Assembly: GCA_030614005.1 (NCBI GenBank)
Contig: JAUWKS010000020.1
Span: 1-32,000 of the forward strand
Source of the DNA: Candidatus Heimdallarchaeota archaeon
Lineage (GTDB): Archaea > Asgardarchaeota > Heimdallarchaeia > JABLTI01
Length of the DNA stretch: 32,000 bases
Direction: 5' to 3'
This document shows, piece by piece, positions 26,056 through 30,084 of the stretch. The first letter of the stretch is position 1. Every line of letters starts with the position of its first letter. The translations under genes and the position numbers were made by a program. Under the pieces are notes generated by a model. It saw only the letters and a program-made list of their open reading frames with translations, was not told the origin of the DNA and made no database searches.

Positions 26056-26760
26056 TTATCTTACTTCACAAACTTCAAAATTTGCTTTAATTTTTTCACA
26101 AGCATCTTCAAGAATACCTAAGCGAAATGGTTGAAGCTTTTCAAATTCCTTATCTAAACACTTCAAGGGTCTGAATTGTTGAATATACAATCGCTTTGCT
26201 CCTTTGATCATTTCCGCAATAATTGGAATATCATGTTCAGGATCGATTATTGTAGGAACAACTGTTGTTCTAAATTCATAATCAATATCAGAATCAATTA
26301 TGATTTTAATTGATTTCAGAATATTTTTGATGTTCACTTTCTTGCCAGCAGCGAGGTGATATTTCTCTGGAATTGCTTTAACATCCATAGCAATATAATC
26401 AAGCAATTTGTCATCAATAAGTTTCTGAATTACATCAGGATGATTACCATTGGTGTCAATTTTTGTTTTTAACCCCATTCCTTTGATAATTTTCAGAAAA
26501 TCAGGCAATCGCTTACTGAGAGAAGGTTCTCCTCCAGTAATTGACACTCCATCCAGCCATTTGCTCTTTGATCTCTTTTCAATTTCTGCAAGAATTTCAT
26601 TCGTATCAAAACTTTTTACAGCATCTAAAGGAATTAAATCCGGATTGTGACAGAATGGACATCGAAAATCACATCCTGCAAGAAAGATACTATCTACAAT
26701 TAGACCTGACCACTCAATAATTGAACCCTGTTTATACCCCTTAATTTCAAGTCCTACCAA
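26056..26760 (-). CDS. nrdG: Anaerobic ribonucleotide reductase activating enzyme (radical SAM)
   Basis: FLAGCDFRCPFCHNP (CxxxCxxC), GVSITGGEP, KIDTNG, MDVKA, YEFRTT, QQFRP; operon context. Confidence 0.93.
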   Translation of the reverse strand: MVGLEIKGYKQGSIIEWSGLIVDSIFLAGCDFRCPFCHNPDLIPLDAVKSFDTNEILAEIEKRSKSKWLDGVSITGGEPSLSKRLPDFLKIIKGMGLKTKIDTNGNHPDVIQKLIDDKLLDYIAMDVKAIPEKYHLAAGKKVNIKNILKSIKIIIDSDIDYEFRTTVVPTIIDPEHDIPIIAEMIKGAKRLYIQQFRPLKCLDKEFEKLQPFRLGILEDACEKIKANFEVCEVR

Positions 26761-26779: not shown

Positions 26780-27040
26780 TTATTTTGCTTGAAGTTCTTT
26801 TTGAACTTGCTCTATTGGAGGTACTTCTCCTCTCCAAGCTTTAACTTCACTATCGGATTCATCGACAATAATCAAAGAAGGTGTTGAAAGAACATCAAAA
26901 TAAACTGATTCTGATAAACCTTCTTCATCATCTAAATTGAACCACTCAACAACAGTACCTTTTTCTTCAAGTTTTTTTGCCATAGCTTTTGCTGGAGGGC
27001 AATTTGGACAATCTGCTTTTGTAAATACTTTTAATTTCAT
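26780..27040 (-). CDS. Glutaredoxin/NrdH-like thioredoxin-fold protein
   Basis: KLKVFTKADCPNCPPAK (CxxC), V.STPSLII with the cis-Pro motif. Confidence 0.9.
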   Translation of the reverse strand: MKLKVFTKADCPNCPPAKAMAKKLEEKGTVVEWFNLDDEEGLSESVYFDVLSTPSLIIVDESDSEVKAWRGEVPPIEQVQKELQAK

Positions 27041-27152: not shown

Positions 27153-27386
27153 CTACACGTCATCAGACCAATAATTGCCTTTTTGTCTTCTCTTTAACTC
27201 TGATTTCTTAGAGTTGTTCCAGTTATCAATTATACTAAAGTATCCTACTACCCTGCTAATACCGTAAACATTGTCGCTGTTACAGTATGGGCAATTAGGA
27301 GTAGAACACGTTTCACCTGCATGTTCTATATTTTGTTCTGTTGTTACTTCGGTTATTTTTGTTATAGTTGTTTTTGCCTGTTCCAT
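27153..27386 (-). CDS. Stand-alone glycyl-radical domain of class III RNR (NrdD C-terminal part)
   Basis: CPYCNSDNVYGISRVVGYFS..NWN.SKKSELK.R matches the NrdD CPxC...RVxGY C-terminus. It has its own GAGG RBS. Confidence 0.9.
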   Translation of the reverse strand: MEQAKTTITKITEVTTEQNIEHAGETCSTPNCPYCNSDNVYGISRVVGYFSIIDNWNNSKKSELKRRQKGNYWSDDV

Positions 27387-27454
27387 ACAATTTTTCCTCG
27401 ATAGTTTATTTTTCTTTTTACGCCATTTTTCGATTTGTTTTCTTTTTCAGCCCA

Positions 27455-29875
27455 CTATTGACCTTGTACAGAAGAACTTGTTGATCTGCCAAAGCCCCTA
27501 CTAACTTGTCCACAATCTCTACAGACTGTAAACTCTGGTGAAAACACTATCTGTGCGCTCTGGGTATTGTCCCATGTTTTCTTAACCAGATTCATTATTG
27601 ATTCCGCCGAGGGTTTTTGCTCGCCGACGAATATGTGTGTGATAGAACCGCTTTCAATGAGGGTATTGAATTTCCCTTGTTTTGAAATTCTATCAATAAT
27701 ATCAATAGGTGCATCAGCTGCGAAGTGTGCACTATTGGTATAGTAAATTGATCCTTCGTCAATATCACCCTTGACATAATGAATACTGTCAGGATATTCC
27801 TTAAGATCAGTTCTCGCGAATTTAAAAGGAGCACTTTCTCCTGGAGTTTCTTCAAGAGTAACAGTTAGACCATGTAGTTTTTGGAGAGCTTTTGCTTTTA
27901 GGTTCATTCCAGCAATAATCTTTAGGCCTAGTTTGTAGGCTTTTTCGCTGTCATGTTGTTCTTCATCAATAAGATATTGAACACATTCATTTAATCCTAT
28001 AACGCCTATAATGTAAGTTGCTTTTTCCAAATCAACATAAGGTCTACCATCTTCAGCAATCATACCAATTTGCCAAAGGGTGCCATTTTCTTGAGTCATG
28101 AGTTGAGTAATGAATTCCTTCTTCTCAAGATGAGCTTCCATTGCTAAATCCATTGCTCGTCTAATTTCTTCAATTGTTTTCTTTACGTTACCTTTTCCGG
28201 CTCGATACGCTGCTTGTGGTAAATTAATGCTCACATTTTGGAACCCACAATAACGCATGCTTTCAGGATGTTCAATCATATACATGTCAGTGATTGTTGT
28301 TTTTAATCGACAGCACATTGAAAGATTGATTTCATCGCGATCAAATATGAAATAAGTTGAACCATTTTCAGAGGATATTTTACATGCCAGTTCCAACAAT
28401 TTATACTGTTCAGGATCATCAAAGGAACTTTGATCAATATGTAAATCAAATTTTGGAAATGGGAAGACTTTCGATTCAGAATCTCCTTCTAACCAAACTT
28501 CCATTAATGCTTTAGCAAATAATTGTGTTTCTTTTTCATACTCGCCATAATTTTTTCCAGTATATTTACCACCAGGGCCAATTGCGGGTATGTTTTTGAG
28601 ATATCTTGGAATGCCTAAATGAATATTAAAATCTACAAAAAGGGTTTGTCCCCCTCTTGAGAACGCATTTTGACTGCAAGAATAAATCAATCGCTGTGCT
28701 TCTTGTTTTATTTGTTTATATGGGACACCAACAAAATAAGGGGCATAAAAGATATTCAGATAAGCTAATCCTAAAGCACCGGCATAATATGCTTGCATTG
28801 AAGCTAAGAAGGTATTAAGATGTCCAGTAAGAGTATCTGCATGATTTGCTGGGTTTGAAACGGTTGAGAGATTTAACAAGTTCAATCCATATTTTTTGAT
28901 ATATTCTAAGCTATGAGCAGAGCAATACACCCTGACTGGGAAACCCAAATCATGCAGGTAAATCATTCCTTTTCTGTGTGCATTTGCTACTTCCTTGGAG
29001 AAGAGCTCTTGAAGAGCAAATTTTTTCAATATTGCTTCTGCAATAGCTAAGTTCACCGCCTCTGGATTATTGGCGACTACGTTACTATTTTCTTTGCTTT
29101 TTGAAAGTATAAGTTGTTTAAGATCGAATGTGGGTATACCAATAGTTTTCTGTTGAACCAATTTAGTATTATACCCTCGAGTAAATAATTCATTATCAAC
29201 CAAACTTCTGATAAAATCAACTGATATTACACCTATGCCAGATGCAAATATCTTTCTTTCAACTTCTATGGAAACAGAATCAGCATCTGCACGATTTAAT
29301 CCTGCTTCTTTAACCAAAGCGGCAGTAATTTTTGTTCGGTCCCAACCAGAAATTTCCTCTCGAGTATCAGCTGATACCATTAACAGAAGTTCAGTAGAAT
29401 CACGACTTTTCACATCTACTTCCTTTACTACTTTTAATTTCTCCAACTCACGTTCAAATGAAGCGATATCTGTGAATCGTCTATAAACTGAAGCATAACG
29501 AATATAAGCAACTTCATCGAGTCCTCGGAGTTTTTCCATAACTAATTCTCCTACGACACTAGCTTCAATTTCCAATTCTTCATTTTTTCTTAATTCACTT
29601 TCAATTTCATCTATAACGTCTTCAATTTCCTCAGAAGAAATAGGTCTTTTTTCGCAGGCTTTTACGATACCTTTTTTGACTTTCTCACGATCAAATGGTT
29701 CCCTACGTTTATCCTTCTTTACAATAGTAAGCTTCACTTGTTCTATTCGTTCATAAGTTGAAAATCGCTTTTTACATTGAAGACATTCTCTTCTTCGTCT
29801 ATTTGCTTTCATGTCTTCTGACGCTCGTTTATCAACGACTCGAGTATTTGGCGATTGACAGTAAGGGCATTTCAT
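27455..29875 (-). CDS. nrdD: NrdR-NrdD fusion: NrdR repressor (aa 1-147), second ATP cone, class III RNR barrel; lacks the glycyl-radical domain
   Basis: MKCPYC...RRRRECLQCKKRFSTYE...VAYIRYASVY (NrdR); LHDL...YC, SRGGQTLF, FPFP, SMCCRL, IGVIGLNE, ETPGES, YYTNS, ESGSITH (NrdD). Ends after CRDCG with no RxxGY. Confidence 0.95.
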   Translation of the reverse strand: MKCPYCQSPNTRVVDKRASEDMKANRRRRECLQCKKRFSTYERIEQVKLTIVKKDKRREPFDREKVKKGIVKACEKRPISSEEIEDVIDEIESELRKNEELEIEASVVGELVMEKLRGLDEVAYIRYASVYRRFTDIASFERELEKLKVVKEVDVKSRDSTELLLMVSADTREEISGWDRTKITAALVKEAGLNRADADSVSIEVERKIFASGIGVISVDFIRSLVDNELFTRGYNTKLVQQKTIGIPTFDLKQLILSKSKENSNVVANNPEAVNLAIAEAILKKFALQELFSKEVANAHRKGMIYLHDLGFPVRVYCSAHSLEYIKKYGLNLLNLSTVSNPANHADTLTGHLNTFLASMQAYYAGALGLAYLNIFYAPYFVGVPYKQIKQEAQRLIYSCSQNAFSRGGQTLFVDFNIHLGIPRYLKNIPAIGPGGKYTGKNYGEYEKETQLFAKALMEVWLEGDSESKVFPFPKFDLHIDQSSFDDPEQYKLLELACKISSENGSTYFIFDRDEINLSMCCRLKTTITDMYMIEHPESMRYCGFQNVSINLPQAAYRAGKGNVKKTIEEIRRAMDLAMEAHLEKKEFITQLMTQENGTLWQIGMIAEDGRPYVDLEKATYIIGVIGLNECVQYLIDEEQHDSEKAYKLGLKIIAGMNLKAKALQKLHGLTVTLEETPGESAPFKFARTDLKEYPDSIHYVKGDIDEGSIYYTNSAHFAADAPIDIIDRISKQGKFNTLIESGSITHIFVGEQKPSAESIMNLVKKTWDNTQSAQIVFSPEFTVCRDCGQVSRGFGRSTSSSVQGQ

Positions 29876-30004
29876 TATTCTAGTTCACTCGTTTTTTCTT
29901 AGGCACTATTTTCCTGCGCCGATTTTTATTTTGGCGTTTTATGTCGGTTCTAGGAGACGGTCTCACCTCTAAGCGAGTTTGTTTCCTTTACAGCCCACCC
30001 TATA

Positions 30005-30020
30005 CCACCACATCTGGTGG
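30005..30020. promoter_or_regulatory. NrdR box (gene-proximal)
   Basis: CCACCACATCTGGTGG fits the 16-bp palindromic consensus acaCwAtATaTwGtgt at the key C4, A6, A8, T9, T11 and G13 positions. Confidence 0.8.
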
Positions 30021-30035: not shown

Positions 30036-30051
30036 ACACAACATATTGTAT
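30036..30051. promoter_or_regulatory. NrdR box (promoter-proximal)
   Basis: ACACAACATATTGTAT, 14/16 match to the consensus and exactly 31 bp from the other box. Confidence 0.85.
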
Positions 30052-30076: not shown

Positions 30077-30084
30077 TATTTAAA
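30077..30084 (-). promoter_or_regulatory. Candidate archaeal TATA box of the nrd operon
   Basis: TTTAAATA on the minus strand, about 25 bp upstream of the first NrdR box. The AT-rich context makes the call weak. Confidence 0.35.

What the first reader, a model, noticed from the sequence alone, without database searches (positions are those of the whole stretch)
29435..29875. Complete NrdR transcription repressor fused to the reductase it controls
The first 147 aa are a full NrdR (CxxC...RRRR.CxxC Zn ribbon, ATP cone, AYIRYASVY), joined in frame to a second ATP cone and NrdD. NrdR is normally a stand-alone bacterial repressor. The fusion gives one polypeptide two nucleotide sensors, one possibly for DNA binding and one for enzyme activity. 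It raises the question of how NrdR oligomerisation (dATP/ATP-loaded tetramers on DNA) fits with NrdD dimers.
Basis: partly seen in the sequence, partly recalled or inferred. Interest (0 to 1): 0.85.

Follow-up and report, generated by a model that had tools for sequence, protein, structure and literature searches.

The report
Ribonucleotide reductase fused to its repressor
An Asgard archaeon's only ribonucleotide reductase carries a complete NrdR repressor at its front end and has NrdR operator boxes in its own promoter, so the enzyme that makes DNA building blocks probably shuts off its own gene.

Summary
ORF 27455..29875(-), 806 aa, starts with a full NrdR. It matches TIGR00244 over 1-147/147 at 196 bits (cut-off 125) and aligns without gaps to E. 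coli NrdR. It continues in frame into class III reductase NrdD.

The fusion is not an artefact:
- Ten species of this Heimdallarchaeota family carry it.
- About 100 or more protein clusters carry it, mostly DPANN archaea.
- Contigs from three studies cross the junction without indels.

All DNA-contact, zinc, dimer and nucleotide-binding residues of NrdR are kept across 89 fused proteins. Two 16-bp NrdR boxes with a 15-bp linker lie just after a TATA box. They are conserved in all ten relatives, and they form the only such pair in the 3.6-Mb genome. This genome has no other NrdR and no other RNR.

Best reading: a self-repressing reductase that senses dATP/ATP.

- The "second ATP cone" is a degenerate remnant with no K-R motif, so this protein probably has one nucleotide sensor, not two.
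- The NrdR module sits where relatives carry the regulatory ATP-cone.
- Stand-alone NrdR is common in one DPANN phylum.

I found no paper describing the fusion. This scan reported the same fusion earlier on other genomes.

The parts
30077..30084 (-). TATA-box-like element (TTTAAATA) of the nrd promoter
   Evidence: Conserved as TTTAAAT/TTTATAT at a fixed distance upstream of box 1 in all 10 family members. Its role as an archaeal TATA box is inferred, not mapped.
30036..30051 (-). NrdR box 1 (ATACAATATGTTGTGT)
   Evidence: 15/16 to the generic NrdR-box consensus ACACWANATNTWGTGT. 18.8 bits with a PWM trained on other species only. Conserved in 10/10 relatives. It starts 25 nt after the TATA element, so it would cover the transcription start (inference).
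30005..30020 (-). NrdR box 2 (CCACCAGATGTGGTGG)
   Evidence: Offset 31 bp from box 1 (15-bp linker), the canonical NrdR operator geometry (abstract of PMC13584703). 19.2 bits. This is the only pair at offset 31-32 in the whole 3.6-Mb genome.
29741..29875 (-). NrdR Zn-ribbon domain (aa 1-45)
   Evidence: PF22811 1-42/42, E 2e-17. C3, C6, C31, C34, the DNA-contact residues D15, R17, R26, R28, R37 and the dimer residues R27, R29, E42 are all present (residue roles from PMC12176259).
29435..29740 (-). NrdR-type ATP-cone (aa 46-147), canonical
   Evidence: PF03477 80.4 bits, profile 2-87/88. K53, E59, K65, K76, Y131 are kept; position 127 is Y instead of F.
29357..29434 (-). Linker (aa 148-173), predicted disordered
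   Evidence: AlphaFold2 pLDDT <50 for residues 148-173; pTM 0.36, so no confident packing between modules. The KVVKE motif at its start is also found in unfused type-A NrdDs.
29171..29356 (-). Degenerate ATP-cone remnant (aa ~174-235), a three-helix core without the K-R motif
   Evidence: Pfam ATP-cone 23.2 bits, profile 12-72 only. The K-R-D-G columns read D-T-R-E here and D/P-T-x-G/E in 52 type-A proteins. The best Foldseek PDB matches of the model are ATP-cones (5olk, 9fxk, 9d3x; rmsd 1.5-2 A over 58-67 columns, but E 0.2-1).
27458..29095 (-). NrdD catalytic core (aa 261-806), ending after the first CxxC of the C-terminal Zn site; stop TAG at 27455-27457
   Evidence: TIGR02487 1-537/581, 346.9 bits. 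The MCCR loop motif is present.
27153..27386 (-). Separate 77-aa protein carrying the second CxxC and the glycyl-radical loop (RVVGY)
   Evidence: TIGR02487 positions 537-580, E 9e-11. It is in a different frame, 68 nt after the stop. The same split occurs in all family members (806-808 aa proteins) and in DPANN loci L037 and L038. Contigs cross it with no indels.
26780..27040 (-). Thioredoxin/NrdH-like redoxin (86 aa)
   Evidence: PF13192 Thioredoxin_3, E 3e-6. The same gene order occurs in the Aenigmatarchaeota and Micrarchaeota loci.
26056..26760 (-). Radical-SAM activase (NrdG-type, 234 aa)
   Evidence: PF04055 E 1e-21 and PF13353 E 8e-11. It lies downstream of nrdD in the related loci.

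Best explanation
The gene encodes a 'trigger enzyme': an anaerobic (class III) ribonucleotide reductase whose N-terminus is a fully intact NrdR repressor module.

Proposed mechanism:
- When the NrdR-type ATP-cone is loaded with dATP plus ATP, the Zn-ribbons of several subunits bind the two NrdR boxes. Most simply this would be two NrdD dimers forming a tetramer.
- The boxes lie just downstream of the TATA box of the enzyme's own operon, so binding blocks archaeal RNA polymerase recruitment.
- With ATP alone the module would adopt a form that cannot bind DNA, and the operon is transcribed.
- Repressor and enzyme are one chain, so repression scales directly with enzyme abundance and with the dATP/ATP ratio.
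- The NrdR cone sits in the slot where unfused relatives carry the activity-regulating ATP-cone, and the inner cone is degenerate. The same cone may therefore also gate catalysis.

Shown here: the architecture, residue conservation, operator presence, conservation and uniqueness, and the absence of any other NrdR.

Inferred: DNA binding, nucleotide dependence, tetramer geometry, the transcription start, and the dual role of the cone.
For: 1. The module is a full NrdR, not a look-alike. TIGR00244 matches 1-147/147 at 196 bits. It aligns without gaps to E. coli NrdR. It is 50-61% identical to bacterial and archaeal stand-alone NrdRs. The AF2 model matches NrdR structures at E 1e-16.

2. Residues that PMC12176259 names for DNA recognition (D15, R17, R26, R28, R37), Zn-ribbon dimerisation (R27, R29, E42) and nucleotide binding (K53, E59, K65, K76, Y131) are kept in this protein. 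They are nearly invariant in 89 fused proteins that are only 45-60% identical overall.

3. Two 16-bp boxes with a 15-bp linker lie 25 nt after a TATA-like element. The TATA element, box 1 and box 2 are conserved islands in otherwise diverged upstream regions of 10 species. They are fixed relative to TATA while the distance to the ATG varies from -98 to -183.

4. A PWM trained only on other species finds exactly one pair at offset 31-32 in the 3.6-Mb genome, and it is this one (19.2 and 18.8 bits). With the generic consensus, such pairs occur about 0.001 times per 300 nt.

5. The genome (90% complete) has one NrdR hit, which is the fused one. It has no class I/II RNR and one NrdD core.

6. Box pairs also follow the TATA box of fused genes in 7 of 8 sampled genomes of a DPANN phylum, and in L037 and L038. 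Each of the eight sampled genomes and the genome of L037 has only the fused NrdR; that of L038 was not searched.

7. Unfused type-A NrdDs carry a canonical ATP-cone (anammox bacteria) or a short helix in the slot where the NrdR module sits.

8. P. copri NrdD forms dATP-induced tetramers via ATP-cone pairs (PMC11226230). DNA-bound NrdR is a tetramer with cone pairs and Zn-ribbon pairs (PMC9110341). A dimer of NrdD dimers is therefore geometrically plausible (inference).
Against: - There is no experimental or expression evidence. DNA binding, nucleotide response and transcription start are all inferred.
- Two fused loci showed no box pair (L035 Aenigmatarchaeota, L158), and L036 has one clear box only. 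Operator control is therefore not universal among fusions.
- A roughly 90-kDa enzyme on each Zn-ribbon could hinder the intertwined NrdR tetramer sterically. The model gives no confident inter-domain geometry (pTM 0.36).
- The linker is predicted disordered, so cleavage that releases free NrdR cannot be excluded.
- The genome is 90% complete, so a second NrdR on missing DNA is unlikely but not impossible.
Confidence: 0.6

Rival explanations
1. The polypeptide is cleaved in the disordered linker, or a separate N-terminal product is made. Repression is then done by an ordinary free NrdR, and the fusion is only a way to co-express repressor and enzyme 1:1.
For: Residues 148-173 are predicted disordered (pLDDT <50). 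In many archaea nrdR and nrdD are separate neighbours with gaps of 3-40 nt, so the fused and unfused states are close in evolution.
Against: No cleavage motif is known. No internal start is conserved: Met166 is Leu in P0013. The in-frame junction has been kept across about 100 or more clusters in two NrdD backbones, which suggests that the covalent link itself is tolerated or selected.
Confidence: 0.15
2. The NrdR module no longer binds DNA. It serves only as the enzyme's allosteric ATP-cone, with the Zn-ribbon as an oligomerisation or structural element. It replaces the canonical cone seen in anammox relatives.
For: It occupies the slot of the regulatory ATP-cone in unfused type-A NrdDs. The inner cone is degenerate. 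Two fused loci have no detectable boxes.
Against: The five DNA-contact residues are conserved in 82-89 of 89 fused modules. Paired boxes with canonical spacing are conserved in 10/10 family members and in most DPANN fusions sampled. In the genomes searched the fused NrdR is the only NrdR that could read them.
Confidence: 0.1
3. Artefact: a sequencing or assembly error removed the stop codon between adjacent nrdR and nrdD genes.
For: Adjacent same-strand nrdR-nrdD pairs with tiny gaps exist in related archaea.
Against: The same continuous frame occurs in 10 species of the family and in about 100 or more 90%-identity clusters from NCBI, JGI, ENA and Logan. Contigs from three independent studies cross the junction with no indel.
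Confidence: 0.01

Closest known systems
Stand-alone NrdR (TIGR00244; E. coli 9FVR/9FXK, S. coelicolor 7P37/7P3F)
   Same: It has the same Zn-ribbon plus ATP-cone and aligns without gaps over 147 residues (46% identity to E. coli). All DNA-contact, dimer and nucleotide-binding residues are kept. Two 16-bp boxes with a 15-bp linker lie in an RNR promoter.
   Different: It is not a free ~150-aa protein. It is covalently joined to the enzyme it should regulate. It acts, if at all, on an archaeal TATA/TBP promoter rather than on -35/-10 elements. The regulon appears to be a single operon.
ATP-cone-bearing class III RNR (P. copri NrdD 8P23/8P28; anammox NrdDs of the same subfamily, P0171/P0179)
   Same: An N-terminal ATP-cone is followed by the NrdD barrel. 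The anammox relatives share the KR-less inner domain and are 63-65% identical in residues 160-420.
   Different: Here the outer cone is of NrdR type and is preceded by a DNA-binding Zn-ribbon. The glycyl-radical domain is on a separate 77-aa protein.
Trigger enzymes that repress their own operon (PutA, BirA, NadR) - from general knowledge, not tested here
   Same: One polypeptide combines catalysis with sequence-specific DNA binding, and a metabolite of its own pathway controls the switch.
   Different: The folds and pathways are unrelated. None is a ribonucleotide reductase. Here the DNA-binding part is a complete, otherwise free-living repressor family.

Membership tests
NrdR (TIGR00244) | Full-length match to the equivalog model above its trusted cut-off | tested here: met
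   196.2 bits against a cut-off of 124.65, positions 1-147/147. 200.4 bits in the genome search.
NrdR (TIGR00244) | N-terminal four-Cys Zn-ribbon with the DNA-contact residues (E. coli D15, R17, R26, R28, R37) | tested here: met
   Gapless alignment to 9fvr. Residue roles come from PMC12176259. They are conserved in 82-89 of 89 fused homologues.
NrdR (TIGR00244) | Canonical ATP-cone with the residues that bind ATP and dATP (K53, E59, K65, K76, Y131) | tested here: met
   PF03477 80.4 bits, profile 2-87. All five residues are present.
NrdR (TIGR00244) | Paired 16-bp NrdR boxes, 15-16 bp apart, in RNR promoters | tested here: met
   30036..30051 and 30005..30020. Conserved in 10 species. Unique in the genome.
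NrdR (TIGR00244) | Free-standing protein of about 150-200 aa | tested here: not met
   It is the N-terminus of an 806-aa chain. No stand-alone copy exists in the genome.
NrdR (TIGR00244) | dATP/ATP-dependent binding to the boxes and repression | not testable with these tools
   Needs EMSA or a reporter assay.
NrdD, class III RNR (TIGR02487) | Match to the equivalog model above its cut-off | tested here: met
   346.9 bits against 326.35, positions 1-537/581.
NrdD, class III RNR (TIGR02487) | C-terminal glycyl-radical loop (RVxGY) and four-Cys Zn site in the same chain | tested here: not met
   The chain stops after the first CxxC. The second CxxC and RVVGY lie on the separate ORF 27153..27386. 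The split is conserved in relatives.
NrdD, class III RNR (TIGR02487) | Radical-SAM activase (NrdG) in the operon | tested here: met
   26056..26760, PF04055 and PF13353.
NrdD, class III RNR (TIGR02487) | Individual catalytic residues (thiyl Cys loop and others) | tested here: inconclusive
   The MCCR loop motif is present, but residues were not mapped one by one onto a solved NrdD.
ATP-cone (PF03477), second copy at aa ~174-235 | Full-length domain with the N-terminal K-R nucleotide-binding motif | tested here: not met
   23.2 bits alone (cut-off 25.8), profile 12-72 only. The K-R-D-G columns read D-T-R-E. The hairpin region is disordered in the model. The helical core still resembles ATP-cones.

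The most novel reading that the evidence does not exclude
A single ATP-cone in a single polypeptide does both known jobs of this domain. It switches the Zn-ribbon on and off the enzyme's own operator, and it allosterically gates the reductase. The only RNR of this archaeon would then be its own dATP-sensing repressor on an archaeal promoter. A further, less likely corollary is that free NrdR arose by fission from such a fused RNR N-terminus. In the quick tree most fused modules fall outside the well-supported clade of stand-alone NrdRs, but the root is unknown.
Probability: 0.3. Interest if true: 0.8.

Novelty: new variant of a known kind. Interest (0 to 1): 0.66.

Why it matters
NrdR is treated in the literature as a bacterial master regulator that is rare or absent in archaea (PMC9110341, PMC12176259, bioRxiv 2025.03.28.645925). 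Here it appears in three new settings:

- Stand-alone NrdR is common in a DPANN phylum.
- In an Asgard family and many DPANN lineages it is fused to its target enzyme, with conserved operators.
- It is placed on a TATA/TBP-type promoter.

If the fusion binds DNA, it would be the first RNR known to repress its own gene. It would also be a natural test of how NrdR tetramers combine with RNR dimers, and of whether one ATP-cone can serve both transcriptional and allosteric control. Rozman Grinberg et al. 2022 singled out that dual role of the domain as unique even when it is spread over two proteins.

In practice, databases name these proteins either only as reductase or only as 'transcriptional regulator NrdR'. 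Both names are incomplete.

Tried and rejected
- Rfam scan of the whole window: no family at gathering score, so no known riboswitch or leader RNA was found.
- The look-up of sequencing runs: no RNA holder listed, so nothing can be said about expression, transcription start or processing.
- AlphaFold2 of the inner cone alone gave a mediocre model (pLDDT 65). Its Foldseek matches are ATP-cones, but only at E 0.2-1. I use this as weak support only.
- The careful maximum-likelihood tree did not finish in 300 s. Only the quick tree (SH-aLRT support, midpoint root) was used, and no direction of evolution is claimed from it. One row (L076) was mislabelled 'bact' in that run; it is a truncated Heimdall fusion.
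- No box pair was found upstream of the fused genes in L035 and L158, and only one clear box in L036.
- A (13,13) consensus pair at C103:12828 scored under 6 bits with the family PWM and was dismissed as chance.
- Internal-start hypothesis for a separate NrdD: Met166 is not conserved.
One regular-expression script returned nothing and was rewritten.
Full report
**What is there.** The minus-strand ORF 27455..29875 encodes 806 residues.
- Residues 1-147 (29435..29875, exactly the finding's coordinates) match the NCBIfam NrdR equivalog model end to end (196 bits, cut-off 125). They also match Pfam's NrdR Zn-ribbon and ATP-cone.
- Residues 261-792 match NrdD (TIGR02487, 347 bits, cut-off 326).
- Residues 1-147 align without gaps to E. 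coli NrdR structures (E 1e-40), so E. coli numbering applies directly.
- An AlphaFold2 model of residues 1-262 matches NrdR structures at E 1e-16.

**It is not an artefact.**
- The window lies in a 3.6-Mb, 90%-complete Asgard genome. Its closest public relatives are labelled Candidatus Heimdallarchaeota or Promethearchaeati.
- Among 399 species genomes of the phylum, the full NrdR match occurs in 9 of the 11 other genomes of the same family, always inside a long open frame of 804-850 aa (one is cut by a contig end). Otherwise it occurs only as two short stand-alone copies elsewhere.
- A protein search limited to long proteins found about 95 clusters with the architecture Zn_ribbon_NrdR + ATP-cone + NRDD. 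Where named, they are Heimdall/Asgard, Aenigmat-, Woese- and Micrarchaeota, Nanobdellota and one Bathyarchaeia. No bacterial names appeared.
- Logan contigs of metagenome runs from three studies (cold seep and marine sediment) cross the junction at 29435 without any insertion or deletion. One of these runs may be the sample the window was assembled from.

**Does the module still look like a DNA-binding sensor?**
- PMC12176259 names D15, R17, R26, R28 and R37 as the DNA-recognition residues, R27/R29/E42 as the Zn-ribbon dimer interface, and K53, E59, K65, K76 and Y131 as nucleotide contacts. All are present here.
- In 89 fused proteins that are only 45-60% identical to this one, the counts are: D15 82 D and 6 E; R17 88; R26 87 R and 2 K; R28 89; R37 89; R27/R29/E42 89 each; K53 87; E59 80 E and 7 Q; K65 86; K76 87; Y131 78 Y and 6 F.
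- That is the pattern expected under continued selection for DNA binding and nucleotide sensing.

**Operators.**
- Upstream of the gene, read on the coding strand, a TATA-like TTTAAATA (30084..30077) is followed after 25 nt by ATACAATATGTTGTGT (30051..30036). A 15-nt linker and then CCACCAGATGTGGTGG (30020..30005) follow.
- This is the canonical NrdR operator: two partly palindromic 16-bp boxes separated by 15-16 bp (abstract of PMC13584703).
- In an alignment of the upstream regions of ten family members, TATA, box 1 and box 2 stand out as conserved islands. They are fixed relative to each other while the distance to the ATG ranges from -98 to -183.
- A position weight matrix built only from the other species' boxes finds exactly one pair at offset 31-32 in the whole genome. 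It is this one, at 19.2 and 18.8 bits.
- With the generic bacterial consensus, pairs of this quality occur about 0.001 times per 300 nt in this genome.
- The genome has a single NrdR hit (the fused one), no class I/II reductase and one NrdD core. The only protein that could read these boxes is therefore the reductase itself, which also appears to be the organism's only RNR.
- Boxes placed just downstream of a TATA box would cover the transcription start, the usual position of archaeal repressors. The start itself is inferred, not mapped.

**Beyond this family.**
- In a DPANN phylum reached through the Woesearchaeota locus (TBP-positive, hence archaeal), NrdR occurs in 318 of 401 sampled species. 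Most copies are free proteins of 148-200 aa, and at least nine are fusions.
- Seven of eight fused genes sampled there carry a box pair after a TATA box, as do L037 and L038. L036 has one clear box, and L035 and L158 have none.
- Each of these genomes that was searched has only the fused NrdR; the genome of L038 was not searched.
- In genomes with free NrdR, nrdR often sits directly upstream of nrdD on the same strand with gaps of 3-40 nt. The fusion is most simply the loss of a stop codon between neighbours.
- The statements in recent NrdR papers that the protein is rare or absent in archaea no longer fit these data.
- Four full-text searches found no description of an NrdR-NrdD fusion. Subscription-only papers were not searchable.

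**The 'second ATP cone'.** Fused proteins fall on two NrdD backbones.
- Type B (for example Woesearchaeota P0043) has a canonical inner cone. The motif is K-R-D-G, with K in 30 and R in 36 of 36 sequences, and it scores 89 bits.
- Type A, to which this protein belongs, has D/P-T-x-G/E at those columns (D-T-R-E here). It scores 23-32 bits over profile positions ~8-75 only.
- The AlphaFold model shows residues 148-173, where the hairpin would be, as disordered, followed by a confident three-helix core. The best PDB matches of that core are ATP-cones, though only at weak E-values.
- The same KR-less domain is present in unfused type-A NrdDs. There it is preceded either by a canonical RNR ATP-cone (anammox Jettenia/Brocadiaceae, ~813 aa) or by a short helical extension (Woesearchaeota, ~720 aa).
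- The degeneration therefore predates the fusion, and this protein probably has one working nucleotide sensor.
- That sensor, the NrdR cone, sits in the slot of the enzyme's regulatory cone. This is why I consider a dual role (operator switch and activity switch) possible. It is inference.

**Oligomer question.** DNA-bound NrdR is a tetramer in which ATP-cones pair A-B and C-D while Zn-ribbons pair A-D and B-C (PMC9110341). P. copri NrdD shifts to tetramers (two dimers) with dATP through paired ATP-cones (PMC11226230). A dimer of NrdR-NrdD dimers could therefore supply the four modules needed for two boxes. The ~26-residue low-confidence linker would give the needed freedom. Nothing here tests this.

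**Phylogeny.** In a quick tree of 180 NrdR modules, the Heimdall fusions form one clade (support 100). Stand-alone bacterial and archaeal NrdRs, together with one type-B fused clade, lie on one side of a branch with 96% support. The other fusions lie outside it. The tree is unrooted in effect, and I draw no direction from it. Within Asgard the fusion is confined to a single family, and the NrdD part is 63-68% identical to DPANN and other sequences. This suggests acquisition by transfer (inference).

**Verdict.** The best-supported explanation is a self-repressing, dATP/ATP-sensing reductase (confidence about 0.6). The rivals are cleavage to a free NrdR (0.15), an allosteric-only module (0.1) and an artefact (0.01). 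This scan had already reported the same fusion on other genomes with the same reading. I reached it here from independent tests on this window.

Noticed in passing
window 27153..27457 (-); G000 C103:22528..22770 (-); G000 C110:63693..63917 (+): NrdD is split inside its C-terminal Zn site. The main chain ends after CRDC. A 77-aa ORF in another frame carries CPYC and the glycyl-radical loop RVVGY. The genome holds two further unlinked paralogues (80 and 74 aa) with nearly the same C-terminal 45 residues, reminiscent of spare-part radical proteins such as GrcA. The split is frequent in this NrdD subfamily whether or not NrdR is fused: 49 of 66 fused and 50 of 75 unfused type-A proteins lack the loop in the same chain, though some may be truncated.
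   Followed up: partly
loci L042-L071, L080-L084, L099, L106-L107: Stand-alone NrdR is present in 318 of 401 sampled species of one DPANN archaeal phylum, and also in Thermoplasmatales and Micrarchaeota records. It is often directly upstream of nrdD. This is at odds with published statements that NrdR is rare or absent in archaea.
   Followed up: partly
L155-L157: Three related DPANN fused genes have two separate box pairs upstream. One pair has 41-bp spacing after the proximal TATA box, and the other has 32-bp spacing about 150 nt further upstream. The second pair may serve a divergent gene or a second promoter.
   Followed up: no
window 29876..30004 (-): The leader between box 2 and the ATG is about 130 nt long. 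Its length varies among relatives (total box 1 to ATG distance 98-183 nt), it shares some conserved stretches with close relatives, and it has no Rfam match.
   Followed up: no
L035 6673..8472 (Aenigmatarchaeota): This locus has a second, cone-less NrdD (599 aa) directly after nrdG in the same operon as the NrdR-NrdD fusion. No NrdR boxes were detected upstream of that operon.
   Followed up: no
window 30006 and 30025: A marine-sediment population (run X4) differs at box 2 position 15 (coding-strand G to A, towards the family consensus GGTAT) and at one linker base. Operator sequence therefore varies between strains while the spacing is kept.
   Followed up: no
P0070, P0075, P0055, P0063: Some fused proteins are 1125-1323 aa long and carry intein or homing-endonuclease Pfam domains (PF14528, PF14890, PF05204) inside the NrdD part.
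   Followed up: no
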